A stretch of 64,000 nt of DNA from the human T2T-CHM13v2.0 reference genome, Homo sapiens: NCBI RefSeq assembly GCF_009914755.1, contig NC_060936.1, one strand, 5' to 3'. This document shows, one piece after another, positions 30,246 through 57,090 of the stretch. The notes beneath the pieces are model-generated. The model was not told where the DNA came from, did not search any database, and saw nothing but the letters and a program-made list of their open reading frames with translations. The position numbers and the translations under genes are program-made. Every line of letters begins with the position of its first letter. Position 1 is the first letter of the stretch.

Positions 30246-33793
<3,548 letters not shown>

Positions 33794-34020
33794 ACAATGA
33801 GAACACATGGACACAGGAAGGGGAACATCACACACTGGGGACTGTTGTGGGGTGAGGGGAGCAGGGAGAGACAGCATTAGGAGATATACCTAATGCTAAA
33901 TGACAAGTTAATGGGTGCAGCACACCAATGTGGCACATGTATACATATGTAACTAACCTGCACATTGTGCACAGGTACCCTAAAACTTAAAGTATAATAA
34001 TAATAATTAAAAAAGAAAAA

Positions 34021-35685
34021 GAGGACACAAACAAATGGAAAAACATTCCATGCTCATGCATAGGAAGAATCAATATCGTGAAAATGGCCATACCTTGTAA
34101 AGTAATGCTATTCCCATCAAGCTACTATTGACTTTCTTCACAGAATTAGAAAAAAACTACTTTAAAGTTCATATGGATCCAAAAGAGGGCCCGTATAGCC
34201 AAGACAACCCTAAGCAAAAAGAGCAAAGCTGGAGGCATCATGCTACCTGACTTCAAACTATGCTACAAGGCTACAGTAACCAAAATAGCATGGTAATGGT
34301 ACCAAAACAGATACATAGACCAATGGAACAGGAGAGAGGCCTCAGAAATAACACCACACATCGAGAACCATCTGATCTTCCACAAACCTGACAAAAACAA
34401 GTAATGGGGAAAGGATTCACTATTTAATAATGATGTTGGGAAAACTGGCTAGCCATATGCAGAAACAAAAACTGGACCCCTTCCTTACACCTTAAACAAA
34501 AATTATCTCAAGATGGATTAAAGACTTAAATGTAAGACCTAAAACCATAAAAACCCTAGAAGGAAACCTAGGCAATACCATTCAGGACATAAGCACGGGC
34601 AAAGACTTCATGACTAAAACACCAAAAGCAATGGCAACAAAAGCCAAAATTGACAAATGGGATCTAGTTAAACTAAAGAGCTTTTGCACAGCAAAAGAAA
34701 CTACCATCAGAGTGAACAGGCAACCTACAGAATGGGAGAAAATTTTTGCAATCTATCCATCTGACAAAGGGCCAATATCCAGAATCTACAAGGAACTTAA
34801 ACAAGTTTATGAGAGAAACACAAACAATCCCATCAAAAAGTGGGCAAAGGATATTAGCAGACACTTCTCAAAACAAGACATTTATGCAGCCAACAAACAT
34901 ACCAAAAAAAGATCATCACTGGTCATTAGAGAAATGCAAATCAAAACCACAATGAGATACCATCCCACGCCAGTTAGAATGGTGATCATTAAAAAGTCAA
35001 GAAACAAGAGATGCTGGAGTGGATGTGGAGAAATAGGAACGCTTTTACACTGTTATTAGTAGTGTAAATTAGTTCAACCACTGTAGAAGACAGTGTGGCG
35101 ATTCCTCAAGGATCTAGAACCAGAAATACCATTTGATCCAGCAATCCCATTATTGGGTGTATACCCAAAGGATTATAAATCATTCTACTATAAAGTCACA
35201 TACACACGTATGTTTATTGCAGCACTATACAATAGCAAAGACTTGGAGCCAACCCAAATGTCCATCAATGATAGACTGGATAAAGAAAACGTGGCACATA
35301 TACACCATGGAATAGTATGCAGCCATAAAAAAGAATGAGTTCATGTGCTTTGCAGGGACATGGATGAAGCTGGAAACCCTCATTCTCAGCGAACTAACAC
35401 AGGAACAGAAAACTGAACACCGCATGTTCTCACTCACAACTGGGAGCTGAACAATGAGAACACATGGACACAGGGAGGGGAATGTCACACACTGGGGCTT
35501 GTCGGAGGAAGAAGGGCAAGGGGAGGAATAGCATTAGAAGAAACACTGAATGTAGATGATGGATGATGGGTGTAGCAAACCACCATGGCACATGTATACC
35601 TATGTAACAAACCTGCACATTCTGCACACGTATCCCAGAACTTAAAGTATAATTTTTAAAAATAAATAAATAAAAAGAAAAAGAA
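34021..35685 (+). mobile_element. 5'-truncated older LINE-1 (L1PA6/7-like), ORF2 3' part and 3'UTR
   Basis: Begins in ORF2 (GAGGACACAAACAAATGG), ends CCCAGAACTTAAAGTATAAT plus A-rich tail. Confidence 0.9.
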
Positions 35686-36166
35686 ATTGTTCCCTTCATG
35701 TTGACACATGTTTTGGGGAGATTTCATGATACACAGGAGATATTCCTGACATGAATAAGCATGTTAAGACAGGGAATGCCAGGAATTTTAGGGAAAAAAA
35801 CTTGAAGTCTTTATTCAGGAAAATATGCTTTCCTTGGTGCTTCAACTTAGATAACACTTTGCTGAGTAAGATTGGCTCTAGGGCTGAGAAGTCTAGGGAA
35901 ACAGGCCCTTCCCTTTGTACACAGATGTGGTTCTTTTGCAGTGAGATGCTTACTCTGAATATCTGTCTAGTAACCTACCTTCCTCCTGGTCTACCCCGCT
36001 GATCTAGTGTTTTAGGCTCAATAGACCTGTGGTGGAAGGGAAACTGCCTGAGATTTATCATTCCTATATGGCACATATGGGATGAGGCTTAGCCAATTTC
36101 CACCCAGATCTTCAGCACTCCCATTGTGTCTGAAGTTGTGATTTCATCACTTTAATCACCTAGGAG

Positions 36167-39136
36167 ATGGCAGAGCTGGGCAGAGAATTCCATGTCCTCT
36201 CTCACATCCTAATGGTGGTGGTTGAACCAGGAGCCAGTTTATTCCCAAATGGTGTTCCTTGGCTCTATGCTGTGTTTGCTGTGCTTTTTGTATTTTTTCT
36301 TTTTGCCATGTTATCTCCCTTTTTACTTGAGATAGACCAGCACATAAAGAAATGTAAGTGTCATGGTGGGCCTGAGGGCACAGGGAAATATAGTGAGATA
36401 ATAAATGTATGAAGAGAGGGCAAGATACCTATTATAATGTGAGAAACAAGAAAATAATGCTTGCTCTTCTCTGGTCTCCAAGGCTCAATGACCCTGGACT
36501 TAGAGTTCTTAGAAATTATAATCTTATATACAATTTAAATACTTGGAGGACACAGAACAAAACTAGACTAAGAAGTCCATTCCTAGTATCCTTGTGGAGC
36601 ATAAGAAAGTATCTTGGGCCCTGACTGAACCAATAGTAATACCCACTATAAAGATATGGGACACTGTTTGGAATCTGGGGATATTTGAGAGAGTTTTCAG
36701 ATGATAGTCTCTGATGCAGTATGCTTTGTCTTAGTCTTGATCAGATGCAGGTATTCTCTGCATAACACTGTGCATAAGGACAAAAAAAACAGTGAGATAA
36801 AGATGGACCATCTAGAAAGGCCAGGTAAGTATTCTTTGCCCTTCACCTCTGGGTTATTTTGGCCATAAGCTGGCAACTCTAGTCAGTTCCACAGTCTATG
36901 TGCCAGATAGCTAACCCCATGCTCAGTTCTGGTCTCAGTGAAACAGTCTCTTCAAAGTGTGTGCATGACCTCTCTTCCTCTAAGCTTAGACTAAGACCAC
37001 TGAGACTTCTCTCTAGAGAGAATATTTTTCAGGCAGAGGTTTGATTCTGAGCCCCCTTAACTCTTGCTGGTTGAAAAGTTTCTTTTGCCATTTATACTTG
37101 TGATATTTCTCTTCCTAATAGGGAGGTTGCCTCTTATGTGACTCAGTGACTTAGATATCATTTTTTCATGCTAGACAATGAAAAGAAAGGTGGCTTGTCT
37201 CCAGGAAGTGGTTATAAATTTGCTTTTGTGATAGGATAAGGGCAGAGGGACTTTGTAGGTATGAGATCATCATACAAACAGCCTGAGGAGACTGAAAGTC
37301 CACTTTTTTGGGTGACATTACGACCATGTGTTAATCATAATTCCTGCAGGTTGTGTATATTATGGAACCTGCCTCTCCAGTCAAGGTCAGCTCTAAGTTC
37401 CTTTTCTGCTGTCTTTTTGGCTCCCTCATAAGATCACAGAGAGGGAACATGCTAAATTCCAGGGTTCTTTGTGCCCACTGCTGCACAACTTTTTATGGAT
37501 ATGTCCTATAGATACCCTGAAGAGGTTTCCCTCATACAAAATGAAAATGCCTAGTCTGTAAAAGGTTCTTGTGTTGCTTTGAGATAAGTAAAACAGGGTG
37601 AAAATACATTTCTGTCTGAGTACATATTTGGATTTGGGAACATTTTTGCTTATTAACTCAAGGGAAGAATGGTACCACATTTTTGGGTTGTCGCCTCCCC
37701 ACCATAATAAAAGTATATGATGATTTCAATTGTAGACCATCAGAATGTCTCTCCAAACACTGCAATTACATAAATTAGAATATATAATTTATAGTGAGAA
37801 TATATAATTTAATACTTATAGTTGGAAAAGTGTATTACCGCAAAGTTCACATGAAGTCACTGTAACTCCCAGTTGTTTGTACAAATGTCTTTAATTCCTC
37901 ACTTCAATTCATGTACCACTTCCTCACCTGCTATTGTTCCTGAGACTGTTGTTTGCCCTTAGAACCCATAGGCAGAGGAACAATACTCCAAGAGATGATT
38001 TCAAAGGGCTCTCAAATGGGTGGCTTTGTCTGAAGCTTTCCATTCCAGCAATGAGTGAGAGGAGTATCTCCCCCATGGAAGGGCAGAGAGACCCAGGCTT
38101 ATTATCAAGGGCTTCTTGTAAATGACCAAGAGCATTTCAGAGAGTTCAGAATCTGAATCGGCTCATATCTCTCTTATACGTCAACTTCCACTTTTCTGCA
38201 AGTTGGTGTATGAGACAGAAGCCTACTCAGAATCTGAATATGCCTCCCACAACCCCATTCCCATTCACTGATGCATACAAATTATGCTATTATGACCACA
38301 TTTTCCAAATTCAAATGTTAGTTCTTTGGACCATCAAATGACTTTTGTGCTAATTCTGTATGTGTCCAAAGTGTGGGAAGTTGCTAAAATATGGACATAT
38401 TTTTGACATTTTCCTACCTTATGGTGACCATTGCTCCTAGTATAATAGATTAATTTTCTTTACTTAAGTTTCTTGGGTTGGATGAGAAGAACATTAGTCC
38501 AGATTTTAAAAATAAAGTCACAGAACATTAGCTCTAGAAGCAGTAGAGCTGATGTAGAAAATATCTATTTATTTTCTGTTTGTTATGTAAGATAAAAGTT
38601 GTGGGACATTTGACGACTTTCAGAGTTCAGGTAACATTCATTTATGGACAATCTATACAGGTTGGGATTATCTGCATAGATATGGGAATCAGGACATAAT
38701 TGCAAAGAAAGAGTTGACCTGTCACTGAGGAACAAATGTTCTGGAACTGTGGTTTCCTCTTTTCCATTTTTTTGTGTATTCAGCTTGAGAAATAATAATC
38801 TCTTGTAACAAATATTTTCCAGACTATGGGTCAAGAGTTACATAGTCCTGTCCTAACATGATAGCTCTAAGTGTTTTATGATGTACAGAAATTTTTACAA
38901 TCTGTATCTCTTGCATTGTTTCTGCTGTCTAAAATGTGTGCAGCCATTCTGCTAGGTCACAGATATAACCAAGCAATTTTCTTGTTGTTTCAGGCTGTCC
39001 TCTGGAGTCACCAAGGAGAGGAGTTCTGGGAGGGAAGAAAAATGGGATGGGAAACGACCCATTACTATTTGTGAAAGTGACAAAAGAACCCAGGGATTCT
39101 GAGGCTGAAATCTATACCCCTGGGCCTTCAGTTTGA
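36167..39136 (+). CDS. Putative 3-exon small single-pass membrane protein, 139 aa (exons 36167-36353, 36735-36824, 38994-39136)
   Basis: Strong Kozak GAGATGG; both donors GTAAGT; acceptors tgctttgtcttag and ttttcttgttgtttcag; matching phase-1 junctions keep the frame open; hydrophobic W32-L54; AATAAA at 39236-39241. Confidence 0.55.
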
Positions 39137-39441
39137 GAGTCATTTAGCCTATATGGAATTACCTGTGACATTACATTCCAGAGAGATGAGAAATTCTGAG
39201 ACCCTTATTATCGATGTTTATATTGAAAAAATGGTAATAAATATTTTGAGACTCTCAGAAAAGTTCAGTGTTACCAAGAAATTTGTTGAACTTCTAACTT
39301 CTTCCACACAACTGATTTTAGTCAGTTCAAATCTCACACTATATGACTCAGCAAACTCTGAATCCCAGGCCACAGCTGAGTCCTTCCTCTCTCCCCACTC
39401 AAGATGGTCACACAGAAATATCACCCAGACATTCTAAAATG

Positions 39442-39952
39442 TGTTGGGAACAGGCCCCCCAAAATCTGGCCATAAACTGGCCCCACAACTGGCCATAAAC
39501 AAAATCTCTGCAGCACTGTGACATGTTCATGATGGCCATGACACCCACACTGGAAGGTTGTGGGTTTGCTGGAATGAGGGCAGGGAACAGCTGACCCACC
39601 CAGGGTGGAAAACCACTTAAAGGCATTCTTAAACCACAAACAATAGCATGAACATCTGTGCCTTAAGGACATGCTCCTGCTGCAGATAACTAGCCAAACC
39701 CATCCCTTTATTTTGGCCCATCCCTTTGTTTCCCATAAGGAATACTTTTAGTTAATCTATAATCTATAGAAACAATGCTTATCACAGGCTTGCTGTTAAT
39801 AAATACGTGGGCAAATCTCTGTTCGAGGCTCTCAGCTCTGAAGGCTGTGAGACCCCTGATTTCCCACTCCACACCTCTATATTTCTTGTGTGTGTCTTTA
39901 ATTCCTCTAGCACCACTGGGTTAGGGTCTCCCCAACCGAGCTGGTCTCAGCA
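39442..39952 (+). mobile_element. MER9 (HERV-K HML-3) solo LTR
   Basis: TGTTGGGAACAGGCCCCCCAAAATCTGGCCATAAAC...GGTCTCAGCA; TG..CA ends; 6-bp TSD AAAATG on both sides. Confidence 0.85.
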
Positions 39953-40699
39953 AAAATGTTCTATACAGGTTGCATTTTCCTCCAGCCTTGGAGAGGAGCA
40001 TGACACTTACCCAAGGAAACAGTGGTGCAGTGGCACGATCACGGCTCACTGCAGCCTGGACCTCCCCAGCTCAAGCAATCCCCCTGTCTCTGCCTTTCAA
40101 GTAGCTGGGACTACAGGCAAGTGGAGAAAGATGCATGGGGAAGAAATTGCTACAGTTTTTATTTTCTACCCAAAGCTTCATGGACTCCAAAATATTATTT
40201 ATTTAGTGTCAAATGAAAGTACTTCTTCTCTTTCCTCTCCCACATCAGGTTTTCTTTTCACGTAAATCTCATCCCATAATCTCTCTTATCTTCACCAATT
40301 TATACCTGTTTACCTGCTCTTCCTCTTTGTTCACCTCTCTCAACTACACGCAATATCTTTTGTCATTATGGGTCAATAAGACAGCCAAGTGGAAACCTCT
40401 AGTTAGATACATTAGAGGATATTAGGGATGGGGAAAGAGAGAGGTGGAGGAAGAGAGAGAGAGAGAAGGAGACAGAAAGAAAGAGGAGGAGAGAAATATC
40501 TGAACTGGAGTTATGGAATAGGTTGTTTTGAGATGAAAGGAACTCTTGTCAGTAGAAATGTTAAAGTCTGGTGCTACCTGTCAGAACAGTTATGGGAGGA
40601 ATTTCAGGATGGAATGGGAAGTTAAAACGATTTGCGAAAGTCTCTTCACTGTCTCATAATTATAACAATTTGTGACAAAGAATGGTTGAAATCTCAATC

Positions 40700-55314: not shown

Positions 55315-57090
55315 AACTTCTAGTTTCCCATGAAGCCTGTAAGAAGCTTGGGAGTCATTACTCCCAATCGCATAACAAGAAAAAAGGTGAATAAACTGAA
55401 AATCAACAACTCTTCTTAGGTCCATCAAAGAACTGATGTCATAGGGCAAACCACTACCACCAAAATTGGAGAGACAGACAGGCAGAGACAGAGAATTGCA
55501 ACTTATAGAGCAGAAACCACTGTGGAAATCAGTAATGGGGTAGGGAAATCTAAACTGTAATTGACAAATTGCTGTAGGCTCAGAGTGGAAAAGTTTCAGT
55601 GTTAAAAACTCCAGTGGACCTACATTTTTGTTTTACCTTTAGAAGCCCTACCAAGTTATCACAGTGAAGACTGGAGCAAAATCATTCTGTGCTTTCTATC
55701 AGGAGGAGGGGAAAGTAGTCATTTTGAAGTACATATAAAATATTGTGTTCTTCTTAATGAAGAACACTTCAGTAGGGTTCCTATAAAATACCAGGGAATA
55801 CAATGGTTAAAATTGCACACCAAAGATCTTATTTAAGAACTCACTAGGGAGCCCCAATGACAACAGGGGAGACTAAAACAAGGGCACCAGAAGAAATATT
55901 AGCCTCTGACACCTACAGCTACAGCAAACAATAAATACAGCTTAATCCCTCGCCAGATAAATATAAAACCTTACACCAACACTCTCTTTACCTCAATTCT
56001 TTGTGTCCACTATATATCATGTCTGACTTTCTACAAAATAATTACAAGGCACACTGAAAGACAAAAAACAGAGTCTGAAGAGACAGCAAGCATCAGACCA
56101 GACTCAGATGTGAGAGAGATGTTGAAATGATCACACCAGAACTTTAAAACAACTAGGATTAATGTGTTATGGGATCTAAAGGAAAAAGAGGACAACCTGC
56201 AAGAACATATGAGCAATGTAGGCACAGAGATGGAAGTTCAAAGAAAGGATTAAAAATGCAAGACATCAACAACACTGTAATAGAAACGAAGCATGTCTTT
56301 TAAGGGCTCATCAATGGACTGGACACAGCTGAGGAAAAAAAAATCAGTGAGCTTGAAGAAACATTAATGGAAACTTCAAAAACTTAAATGCAAAGAGAAA
56401 AGAATAAAAAAGACAGAACAGAATATCCAAAAATTGTGAAAGAACTACAAAAGATGTAACAGACATACAATAGGAATGCTAGAAGGAGAAAAAGGTGAGA
56501 AACAAGCAGAAAAATATTTGAAGCAATAATGACAGGATTTCTCACAACTAATGACAGAAACCAAAGCACTTATCCAGGCAGCACAAAGAACACCAAGCAG
56601 AATAAATGCCAAAAAAACAAAACAAACAAACAAAAAACCCCGGAATTTAGGCATTCATATTCCAACTGCAGAAAATCAAAGACAAATAAAAAATATTAAA
56701 AGAAGCCAGAGGAAAAAAATTGTCTATAGAGGAGCAAGGTAAGAATTACATTGAACTTCTCTTCAAAAGCTATGCTAGCAAAAAGAGTGAGTATAATATT
56801 TAGTGTGAAAAAAAGAACCATCAACTTAGAATTCTGTATTCAGGGGAAAGTATCCTTCAAAAGTGAATGAGAAATAAAAGATTTTCTCAGACAAATAAAA
56901 ATTGAGGTTATTTGTTGCCATTACAGTCACCTTGCAAAAAATTATACAAGAAATTCTTCAGAAAGAAAGAAAATGATATAGTTCAGAAGCTCTGATCTAC
57001 GAAAAGAAAAGGGAAGCATTAGAGAAGAAATAAATACAGGTAAAATAAAACTCTTTAAAAAATTTTTACTCTTATTTGATCTAACAGATA
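55315..57090 (+). mobile_element. Old L1M 5'UTR/ORF1 remnant (CD163L1 intron)
   Basis: Degenerate ORF1-like sequence (AGAACACCAAGCAGAATAAAT, TCAACTTAGAATTCTGTAT). Confidence 0.65.

What the first reader, a model, noticed from the sequence alone, without database searches (positions are those of the whole stretch)
36167..39241. Hidden three-exon gene for a 139-aa single-pass membrane protein between ACSM4 and CD163L1
Seen in sequence: exon 1 (36167-36353) starts in strong Kozak context GAG-ATG-G and ends AAA T|GTAAGT. Exon 2 (36735-36824, 90 nt) has tgctttgtcttag|TC...CCA G|GTAAGT. Exon 3 (38994-39136) follows ttttcttgttgtttcag and ends GTT TGA, with AATAAA 100 nt later (39236). Both introns are phase 1 and the joined frame is uninterrupted: MAELGREFHVLSHILMVVVEPGASLFPNGVPWLYAVFAVLFVFFLFAMLSPFLLEIDQHIKKFLIRCRYSLHNTVHKDKKNSEIKMDHLERPGCPLESPRRGVLGGKKNGMGNDPLLFVKVTKEPRDSEAEIYTPGPSV (124 aa from the second ATG, 36212). 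W32-L54 is a clean hydrophobic helix followed by a basic KK..R.R patch. Established: the positive-inside rule would predict N-out/C-in topology, and a TM exon followed by short cytoplasmic exons is a common receptor/adaptor layout. Inference: a real small membrane protein gene, a de novo gene, or the TM+tail remnant of a receptor. I do not recognise the protein, and the exons do not look repeat-derived. The ORF track shows only exon 1. It may already exist as a LOC/lncRNA model.
Basis: partly seen in the sequence, partly recalled or inferred. Interest (0 to 1): 0.85.

Follow-up and report, generated by a model that had tools for sequence, protein, structure and literature searches.

The report
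Conserved membrane microprotein gene labelled lncRNA
The three exons are real and are the human copy of a small single-pass membrane protein gene shared by many placental mammals, yet human RefSeq lists it only as a non-coding RNA, and in apes and Old World monkeys it seems to be evolving almost freely.

Summary
Exons 36167-36353, 36735-36824 and 38994-39136 (+) have GT/AG borders and join into an open 139-codon frame. Both junctions are those of RefSeq lncRNA LOC101927882.

It is not a chance ORF, a de novo gene or a receptor remnant. Protein searches found 22, then 38, predicted proteins of 77-144 aa in primates, rodents, carnivores, bats, artiodactyls and a donkey. None has a name, Pfam family, solved structure or paper.

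Across 15 species the membrane helix is the best conserved part (91% mean pairwise identity). AlphaFold2 gives one helix (residues 17-70) and a disordered tail. Other mammals carry two homologous alternative last exons. Human has only the type without the T-x-V end.

Caveats:
- No human protein record appeared.
- The RefSeq model starts at 36263, after both ATGs.
- Human-orangutan and human-macaque amino-acid divergence fits a neutral simulation, and the human lineage is faster than the lemur's.

Verdict: a real orthologue of a conserved coding gene, ORF intact. Translation and function in humans are unproven.

The parts
36161..36163 (+). In-frame TAG two codons upstream of the first ATG. The frame cannot open further upstream.
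   Evidence: Read from the sequence. ORF 36167..36412.
36167..36211 (+). Optional 15-codon N-terminal extension from the upstream ATG (gagATGg). It is shared with the orangutan model P0028 and absent from the other 32 family-length models.
36212..36353 (+). Exon 1 coding part from the conserved start ATG (ctaATGg): N-terminal 16 residues, membrane helix, and the start of the juxtamembrane segment. Donor is AAAT|gtaagt, phase 1.
   Evidence: Orthologue starts align here. The family profile hits 36212-36355 at E = 2.8e-23.
36260..36328 (+). Codons 17-39 of the 124-aa form: the phenylalanine-rich transmembrane helix, which is the best conserved segment.
   Evidence: Kyte-Doolittle maximum 2.71 and 91% mean pairwise identity over 105 pairs of 15 species. 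AlphaFold2 helix 17-70, with block mean pLDDT of 92, 84 and 80 for residues 21-50.
36263..36263 (+). 5' end of the RefSeq lncRNA model, 51 nt downstream of the conserved ATG. In that model the first AUG (36267) opens a 22-codon out-of-frame ORF. The first in-frame AUG is codon 33 (36308), inside the helix.
36354..36734 (+). Intron 1 (phase 1).
36720..36734 (+). Alternative acceptor (…gatgcag|) 15 nt upstream of exon 2, in frame. The orangutan model P0028 uses the equivalent site and carries 5 extra residues.
36735..36824 (+). Exon 2 (90 nt): basic juxtamembrane and linker segment, including the near-invariant Cys52 and Ser55-Leu56. Donor is CCAG|gtaagt, phase 1.
   Evidence: Profile hit at E = 7.6e-8.
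36825..38993 (+). Intron 2. Its first 14 codons stay open in frame (to the stop at 36866-36868). Three animal models (Prolemur, Catagonus, Moschus) read through into similar sequence.
38994..39136 (+). Exon 3, 'type A' last coding exon (46 codons plus TGA at 39134-39136): disordered tail ending ...P-S-V.
   Evidence: tblastn with donkey P0020 gives 71% identity at E = 2.6e-19..
39137..39241 (+). 3' UTR up to the AATAAA signal (39236-39241). The RefSeq model stops earlier, at 39080, before the stop codon.

Best explanation
LOC101927882 is the single human orthologue of an uncharacterised, unnamed protein-coding gene found in many placental mammals (rat LOC362433 and kin).

Shown:
- Three exons with canonical, phase-1 splice sites carry an intact frame.
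- From the conserved ATG at 36212 the frame encodes 124 residues: a 16-residue acidic N-terminus, one phenylalanine-rich membrane helix, a basic helical juxtamembrane stretch, and a disordered tail of about 50 residues.

Inferred:
- The protein inserts N-out/C-in, because the flank charges follow the positive-inside rule.
- The membrane helix is more conserved than the tail. This suggests it works through sequence-specific contacts inside the membrane, as a small accessory or regulatory subunit of a larger membrane protein. That is how FXYD proteins and the lncRNA-encoded regulins work.
- The near-invariant Cys52 and Ser55 (in an R-x-R-x-S context) are candidate acylation and phosphorylation sites.
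- In other mammals a second, homologous last exon supplies a T-x-V-COOH end, a class I PDZ-ligand pattern. Human keeps only the exon that lacks it.

In apes and Old World monkeys the protein has changed faster than in other lineages, at a rate that fits neutrality. I take the human gene to be probably still coding but under weakened constraint.
For: **Orthologues**
- One search scored 22 of 22 candidates at E = 5.4e-18 to 1.2e-11, with 74-89% identity over residues 16-62 of the query.
- The profile search found 38 proteins with E <= 1 among 113 scored candidates. Of these, 33 carry the N-terminal part. All come from primates, rodents, carnivores, bats, artiodactyls and a perissodactyl.
- The human exon borders coincide with the ends of the matches.
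- The family profile finds all three exons in the T2T genome (E = 2.8e-23, 7.6e-8, 0.0043). Apart from the locus itself the best E is 0.58.

**Conservation**
- 32 columns are invariant among 18 full-length proteins.
- Mean pairwise identity over 105 pairs of 15 species is 91% for the helix, 87% for the juxtamembrane segment, 80% for the N-terminus and 62% for the linker.
- Lemur, bear and ground squirrel each differ from the non-catarrhine consensus at only 1 of 47 exon-1 positions.

**Human copy intact**
- There is no stop or frameshift, and the tail has the same length as in the type-A orthologues.
- Its 7 of 47 exon-1 differences are mostly swaps between hydrophobic residues. That count is within the range of cattle (7) and a bat (8).

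**Structure**
- AlphaFold2 gives one helix, residues 17-70, with block mean pLDDT of 80-92 for residues 21-50. The tail is below 50.

**Transcription and splicing**
- The RefSeq lncRNA model uses exactly these junctions.

**Precedent**
- Membrane microproteins first filed as lncRNAs are reviewed in PMC9827906 and PMC13434451 (search listing and start of abstracts only).
Against: **No human protein record.** Neither search returned a human, chimpanzee or gorilla protein. The orangutan cluster has a single member.

**The RefSeq model does not fit the protein.** It is non-coding, starts at 36263 (after both ATGs) and ends at 39080 (before the stop). As drawn, its first AUG is out of frame.

**Signs of weak constraint in catarrhines**
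- Human-orangutan shows 6 real differences in 124 residues. A seventh, F48L, is a splice-model artefact.
- Human-macaque shows 13 in 124.
- A substitution-only neutral simulation expects 8.9 (95% range 4-15) and 16.7 (10-25). The divergences used, 3.4% and 6.5%, are recalled genome averages.
- The same simulation keeps an open frame 66% and 45% of the time, so intactness in these species proves little.
- Relative-rate tests give 10-11 changes on the human branch against 2-3 on the lemur branch (p = 0.02-0.09).
- The tail Cys is present in 24 of the 28 sequences with a type-A or type-B tail, but it is Tyr in human and orangutan and Ser in macaque.
- Orangutan has lost N13 and G14 of the near-invariant P-N-G-V-P-W.

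**Other weaknesses**
- The second (T-x-V) last exon is not detectable in human.
- All orthologues are pipeline predictions, which list only intact ORFs.
- No DNA of other mammals was available, so there is no dN/dS, PhyloCSF or synteny test.
- The proposed mechanism (accessory subunit, modification sites) is inference only.
Confidence: 0.6

Rival explanations
1. In humans the locus is now only a spliced non-coding RNA. It would be a unitary pseudogene in waiting. The ancestral protein gene lost its constraint in the catarrhine ancestor, and the frame is still open only because too little time has passed.
For: - Amino-acid divergence among human, orangutan and macaque lies inside the neutral simulation. 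Substitutions alone leave the frame open in 45-66% of runs.
- The catarrhine branches are accelerated against the lemur branch.
- The conserved tail Cys is lost in all three catarrhines, and N13/G14 are lost in orangutan.
- The type-B exon is not found.
- RefSeq calls the locus lncRNA with a 5' end after the ATG.
- No human protein record turned up.
Against: - Three catarrhine species all keep the frame, the start codon, both splice junctions and the stop in the same place. The simulation ignores indels, which would make joint survival less likely.
- Observed differences are below the neutral mean in both comparisons (6 vs 8.9; 13 vs 16.7).
- Every human change within the helix (L21V, M24V, V32A, F34L) keeps it hydrophobic.
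- The number of sites is small, and the divergence values are recalled averages.
Confidence: 0.3
2. A de novo gene that arose recently from non-coding DNA in primates.
For: There is no Pfam family and no paralogue in the human genome. The gene is small, with a disordered tail.
Against: Orthologous proteins occur in rodents, carnivores, bats, artiodactyls and a donkey. The same three parts show 74-89% identity over exon 1.
Confidence: 0.01
3. The transmembrane-plus-tail remnant of a larger receptor gene, for example a CD163-family neighbour.
For: The locus lies next to CD163L1 and CD163. The layout, a helix exon followed by short tail exons, is common in receptors (established knowledge).
Against: - No other human locus resembles exon 1, exon 3 or the family profile. 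Apart from the locus itself, the best E-values are 1.2 and 0.58.
- 32 of the 33 family models with the N-terminal part begin with Met at the same point, 16 residues before the helix. The orangutan model begins 15 codons earlier.
- The gene is on the strand opposite to CD163L1.
- Limit: the search for homologous proteins saw only proteins of 45-217 aa, so longer kin in other species were not searched.
Confidence: 0.02
4. A chance open frame across three exons of a genuine lncRNA.
For: Short ORFs are common in lncRNAs, and the mechanical ORF list is full of them.
Against: The three exons match the donkey protein separately at E = 1.8e-21, 5.1e-10 and 2.6e-19. They match the family profile at 2.8e-23, 7.6e-8 and 0.0043.
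Confidence: 0.01

Closest known systems
Predicted proteins 'LOC362433 (predicted)' of rat and unnamed kin in macaque, orangutan, lemur, bear, canids, fur seal, lynx, bats, pig, cattle, donkey and many rodents (P0001-P0033)
   Same: Same start, same helix, same juxtamembrane segment, same exon breaks and the same type-A tail. Identity over exon 1 is 74-89%, and tail identity to donkey type A is 71%.
   Different: - Human and orangutan have an extra in-frame upstream ATG.
- Catarrhines have lost the conserved tail Cys.
- Human lacks a detectable type-B (T-x-V) last exon.
- The human locus is annotated as non-coding.
- None of these proteins has any described function.
Membrane microproteins first annotated as lncRNAs (myoregulin, DWORF, mitoregulin and the like)
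   Same: A small single-helix protein hidden in a transcript filed as lncRNA, and conserved across mammals. The reviews PMC9827906 and PMC13434451 were seen only as a search listing and the start of their abstracts. That these proteins act by binding larger membrane proteins is recalled knowledge.
   Different: - No sequence relation was found. There are no Pfam hits for 18 members.
- This protein is longer (124 aa).
- Its helix is near the N-terminus rather than the C-terminus.
- It is spread over three coding exons with alternative tails.
FXYD family (phospholemman and kin), single-span regulators of Na,K-ATPase
   Same: Working analogy only. Both have a short outside N-terminus, one helix, a basic juxtamembrane stretch with Cys and Ser, and a conserved helix rather than a conserved tail (recalled knowledge).
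   Different: No member of alignment A2 matched the FXYD Pfam family even at E <= 10 (0 of 18). There is no F-X-Y-D motif before the helix. It is not a member.

Membership tests
Unnamed placental small membrane protein family (rat LOC362433-like) | Significant sequence similarity over the N-terminus, helix and juxtamembrane segment | tested here: met
   E = 5.4e-18 to 1.2e-11 for 22 of 22 scored candidates. The profile hits human exon 1 at 2.8e-23 and exon 2 at 7.6e-8.
Unnamed placental small membrane protein family (rat LOC362433-like) | Start Met 16 residues before the helix, with an open frame through three parts to a tail ending ...S-V | tested here: met
   ATG at 36212. The 124-codon frame is open, and the tail aligns end to end with the type-A orthologues.
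Unnamed placental small membrane protein family (rat LOC362433-like) | Single orthologous locus (no paralogue that could be the true orthologue) | tested here: met
   Only this locus matches in the T2T genome. Closed regions of the reference could hide a match.
Unnamed placental small membrane protein family (rat LOC362433-like) | Conserved synteny with the orthologues | not testable with these tools
Unnamed placental small membrane protein family (rat LOC362433-like) | Second, homologous last exon ending T-x-V (type B) | tested here: not met
   Type B is present in 18 of the 33 aligned sequences, all with T at -2 and V at 0. It was not found in the human window or genome. Primates in the set show type A only, so this is not required for membership.
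Protein-coding gene (as opposed to lncRNA) | Purifying selection on the frame | tested here: inconclusive
   Selection is strong across orders: 91% helix identity, and 1 of 47 exon-1 changes in lemur, bear and ground squirrel. Within catarrhines the rate fits neutrality and is accelerated. No codon-level test was possible.
Protein-coding gene (as opposed to lncRNA) | A transcript that contains the start codon, and evidence of translation | not testable with these tools
   The RefSeq model starts at 36263, after the ATG. No reads, Ribo-seq or proteomics data were available, and supplements were closed.
FXYD (Pfam PF02038; accession recalled) | Match to the family profile, with an F-X-Y-D motif before the helix | tested here: not met
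   0 of 18 members matched at E <= 10. The motif is absent from the alignment.
De novo (lineage-restricted) gene | No homologous coding sequence in outgroup lineages | tested here: not met
   Orthologues occur in six placental orders.
Class I PDZ-ligand proteins | C-terminal S/T at -2 and a hydrophobic residue at 0 | tested here: not met
   The human tail ends P-S-V, with Pro at -2. The motif is met only by type-B tails of other species (18 of 18) and by one of ten type-A tails, in Molossus. The motif definition is recalled.

The most novel reading that the evidence does not exclude
A functional human protein-coding gene has been missed. It would encode a 124-aa (or 139-aa) single-pass membrane protein of an entirely unstudied family that dates at least to the common ancestor of primates, rodents, carnivores, bats and ungulates. 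Its near-invariant membrane helix would dock onto an unknown channel, transporter or receptor. Alternative last exons would switch a PDZ-binding end on or off. Catarrhines dropped the PDZ-binding version and then remodelled the rest.
Probability: 0.4. Interest if true: 0.7.

Novelty: new member of a known kind. Interest (0 to 1): 0.6.

Why it matters
If the human copy is translated, RefSeq lacks a conserved protein-coding gene at 12p13.31. Variants there are currently read as non-coding.

The family has no name, domain, structure or paper, yet its membrane helix is about 91% identical across six orders. That usually marks a specific partner inside the membrane. Rat and other model species carry it, so a knockout is feasible.

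The contrast between strong constraint in most mammals and near-neutral change in catarrhines and some murine rodents makes the locus a natural case of a gene possibly caught between coding and non-coding status.

Tried and rejected
**Known families**
- Pfam on the three human exon translations found nothing. The only line was DUF919 at E = 0.058, below its cut-off.
- Pfam on 18 orthologues gave a best E of 0.036 in one member, and no family in more than 3 members.

**Solved structures.** The best PDB hit was E = 0.0076, to a ciliate 'transmembrane protein, putative' chain, over the helix only. I judged it compositional.

**ESM Atlas.** The best score was 0.85, under the 0.9 that the tool itself calls a lead. 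Adipogenin scored 0.82. I did not pursue either.

**Paralogues in the human genome.** None were found with exon 1 and flanks as DNA, the exon 1 and exon 3 proteins, the donkey type-B protein or the family profile.

**Type-B last exon in human**
- tblastn with eight type-B tails gave only a cross-match to exon 3 and a 12-residue match at 39965-40000 (E = 0.10, donkey query only), between two masked repeats.
- A profile of 16 type-B tails scored that spot at E = 18, so I treat it as chance.

**Rat isoform X1 (P0034).** It has a different first exon and found no match in the human genome at E <= 1.

**Literature**
- 'LOC101927882', 'LOC362433', four peptide motifs and 'ACSM4'+'CD163L1'+'lncRNA' each returned 0 papers.
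- So I found nothing in print in the searched library. Supplementary tables of small-ORF catalogues were closed and may list this ORF.

**Not done**
- The third homologous-protein search, the second Atlas search and fold search. A single helix at mean pLDDT 59 would give meaningless matches.
- dN/dS, PhyloCSF and synteny, because no other mammalian DNA was available.
Full report
**1. Observation**

The three exons are exactly as described. The ATG at 36167 sits in gagATGg and is preceded by an in-frame TAG at 36161-36163. Exon 1 ends AAAT|gtaagt. Exon 2 (36735-36824) runs from ...cttag| to CCAG|gtaagt. Exon 3 starts after ...tgtttcag| at 38994 and ends GTT TGA at 39136, and AATAAA is at 39236-39241.

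Joined by coordinates, the exons give 420 nt, which is 139 codons plus a stop, and both introns are phase 1. The mechanical ORF list shows only the unspliced 81-aa ORF. No masked repeat of 100 nt or more touches an exon, and exon 1 with its flanks matches only itself in the T2T genome.

RefSeq already has a spliced model with these very junctions. It is lncRNA LOC101927882 (XR_007082788.1, Gnomon), 36263-36353 / 36735-36824 / 38994-39080. The locus lies on the + strand inside an intron of long antisense non-coding CD163L1 models.

**2. What it is**

I searched with the unspliced 81-aa ORF, scored over its first 62 residues. It returned 22 proteins of 100-134 aa, and all 22 scored candidates were significant (E = 5.4e-18 to 1.2e-11). 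Identity was 74-89% over residues 16-62. Seven further candidates without a named source were left out unscored.

A profile of 18 full-length members found 38 proteins at E <= 1 among 113 scored candidates, with 1323 left out unscored. Thirty-three of them carry the N-terminal part. The other five are isoform models that share only the later exons.

The species are macaque, orangutan, a lemur, many rodents (rat 'LOC362433 (predicted)'), bear, canids, fur seal, lynx, two bats, pig, peccary, cattle, musk deer, goat, muntjac and donkey. By my own knowledge of mammal phylogeny these are all Boreoeutheria. No afrotherian, xenarthran, marsupial or non-mammal appeared, which may reflect annotation rather than absence. 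None of these proteins has a name beyond 'uncharacterized'.

In tblastn against the window, the matches of the donkey protein P0020 stop at the human exon borders: exon 1 at E = 1.8e-21, exon 2 at 5.1e-10 and exon 3 at 2.6e-19. So the conserved protein has 124 residues in human. The orangutan model P0028 shares the upstream ATG and uses an acceptor 15 nt upstream of exon 2. That acceptor also exists in human at 36720.

**3. Anatomy and conservation**

Among 18 full-length members, 32 columns are invariant. The table gives mean pairwise identity over 105 pairs of 15 species from six orders.

| Segment (residues) | Mean pairwise identity |
|---|---|
| Membrane helix (17-39) | 91% |
| Juxtamembrane stretch (40-56) | 87% |
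| N-terminus (1-16) | 80% |
| Linker (57-77) | 62% |

Type-A tails average 74% identity (9 species, including human and macaque). Type-B tails average 60% (8 species).

AlphaFold2 was run on alignment A2 with donkey as the first row. It gives one continuous helix from residue 17 to 70, with block mean pLDDT of 92, 84 and 80 for residues 21-50. The tail is unstructured, and the overall mean pLDDT is 59.

The human flanks carry net charge -1 (124-aa form) or -2 (139-aa form) before the helix, and +2 in the 15 residues after it. By the positive-inside rule this predicts N-out/C-in. That is an inference.

**4. Two tails**

The 33 sequences aligned divide as follows:
- Ten have a tail ending ...P-S-V or similar (type A): human, orangutan, macaque, Lycaon, Callorhinus, Rousettus, Molossus, pig, cattle and one donkey record.
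- Eighteen have a shorter tail ending ...T-x-V (type B): all rodents, bear, lynx, raccoon dog and the other donkey record.
- Five are read-through or truncated models.

The two tails are homologous residue by residue. The two donkey records share identical exon 1-2 sequence, including nine lineage-specific changes from the consensus. I therefore read the two tails as alternative last exons of one gene that arose by exon duplication. This is inference, because no genomic DNA of those species was available.

All 18 type-B tails have Thr at -2 and Val at 0, which is the class I PDZ-ligand pattern (definition recalled). Nine of ten type-A tails have Pro at -2.

In human only type A is found. Eight type-B tails matched exon 3 weakly, plus one 12-residue spot at 39965-40000 between repeats. 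A profile of 16 type-B tails rates that spot at E = 18. Genome-wide searches found no type-B exon either.

**5. Is the human copy alive?**

In favour:
- The frame, start, splice sites and stop are all intact.
- The tail has the same length as its orthologues.
- Human differs from the non-catarrhine consensus at 7 of 47 exon-1 and 6 of 30 exon-2 positions. In exon 1 these are mostly swaps between hydrophobic residues, and the count is within the range of cattle (7) and a bat (8).

Against:
- Lemur, bear and ground squirrel each differ at only 1 of 47 exon-1 positions.
- Relative-rate tests give 10-11 changes on the human branch against 2-3 on the lemur branch (p = 0.02-0.09 with three outgroups). 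The picture is similar for macaque and orangutan.
- Human and orangutan differ at 6 of 124 residues. The seventh listed difference, F48L, comes from the orangutan splice model. Human and macaque differ at 13 of 124.
- A substitution-only neutral simulation on the human coding sequence expects 8.9 (95% range 4-15) and 16.7 (10-25). It leaves the frame open in 66% and 45% of runs. The divergences used, 3.4% and 6.5%, are recalled genome averages.
- The tail Cys is kept in 24 of the 28 sequences with a type-A or type-B tail, but it is Tyr in human and orangutan and Ser in macaque.
- Orangutan has changed N13 and G14 of the near-invariant P-N-G-V-P-W.
- The RefSeq model starts at 36263. In that RNA the first AUG (36267) opens a 22-codon out-of-frame ORF, and the first in-frame AUG is codon 33, inside the helix. 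The full protein therefore needs a transcript that starts further upstream. The orangutan model implies such a transcript, but nothing here shows one for human.
- No human, chimpanzee or gorilla protein record came up in either search.

Murine rodents show a parallel speed-up. Mus pahari differs at 19 of 47 exon-1 positions and Grammomys at 11 of 47. No Mus musculus record was named among the representatives.

**6. Comparison with known families**

- No Pfam family matches.
- No solved structure matches. The best hit, E = 0.0076, covers the helix of a ciliate membrane protein, and I take it as compositional.
- No Atlas cluster reaches 0.9.
- There is no human paralogue.
- The family is not FXYD: 0 of 18 members match, and the motif is absent.
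- By kind, it belongs with conserved membrane microproteins hidden in transcripts filed as lncRNA. These are reviewed in PMC9827906 and PMC13434451, which I saw only as a search listing and the start of the abstracts.
- Four literature searches for the locus names, the peptide motifs and the neighbourhood returned nothing. Supplements were closed.

**7. Mechanism**

Shown:
- A single conserved helix followed by a disordered tail.
- A helix more conserved than the tail.
- Alternative tails in other mammals.

Inferred:
- The helix makes specific contacts within the membrane with a larger protein, so the protein acts as a small accessory or regulatory subunit.
- Cys52 and Ser55 (in an R-x-R-x-S context) are candidate modification sites.
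- Type-B tails tether to PDZ scaffolds.

I put about 0.6 on 'orthologue, still coding in human'. I put about 0.3 on 'orthologue, now only an RNA in human'. The remainder covers the refuted readings.

**8. Verdict**

The likely start is the second ATG, and there is a real question over present-day constraint in humans. This is a new member of a known kind, and of moderate to good interest for genome annotation and microprotein biology.

Noticed in passing
window 36720-36734: A second acceptor (…gatgcag|) lies 15 nt upstream of exon 2 and is in frame. The orangutan protein model P0028 uses the equivalent site, which adds five residues after the helix segment.
   Followed up: partly
window 36825-36868: Reading through the exon 2 donor stays open for 14 codons. 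Three animal models (Prolemur P0003, Catagonus P0016, Moschus P0031) read through into similar sequence (...Y/H-S/P-L-P-F-T-F-G...). This is either a conserved retained-intron isoform or a conserved splicing element.
   Followed up: partly
window 39965-40000: A 12-residue match (7 identical, E = 0.10) to the start of the donkey type-B tail. It sits after a ...tatacag| acceptor-like site and between two masked repeats, and a stop follows directly. A profile of 16 type-B tails rates it E = 18, so it is probably chance.
   Followed up: yes
window 30422-35508: A large masked block lies 0.7-5.7 kb upstream of exon 1. Chance tblastn matches at 31418-31627 (+) look LINE-1 ORF2-like to me. This is recalled and not tested.
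   Followed up: no
window 39439-39954 and 40019-40125: Masked repeats lie directly downstream of the poly(A) signal. By eye the first looks LTR-like and the second like an Alu fragment (recalled, not tested).
   Followed up: no
window 16108-64000 (- strand): The RefSeq CD163L1 gene span is stretched by three non-coding Gnomon models (XR_008488564-6). Their last exons reach 16108 and overlap the 3' half of ACSM4 antisense. The microprotein locus lies in their intron 24273-44367.
   Followed up: no
P0034 (rat isoform X1): A rat model joins a different first exon, encoding another hydrophobic helix, to exon 2 of this gene. It has no match in the human genome at E <= 1.
   Followed up: partly
P0030 (Mus pahari), P0025 (Grammomys): These murine copies are much more diverged (19 of 47 and 11 of 47 exon-1 changes from the consensus). 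No Mus musculus record was named among the cluster representatives. The gene may be decaying or lost in mice.
   Followed up: partly
window 55431-55451 (- strand): A 7-residue stretch on the minus strand matches the type-B C-terminus at 6 of 7 positions (E about 7-9). I take it as chance.
   Followed up: no
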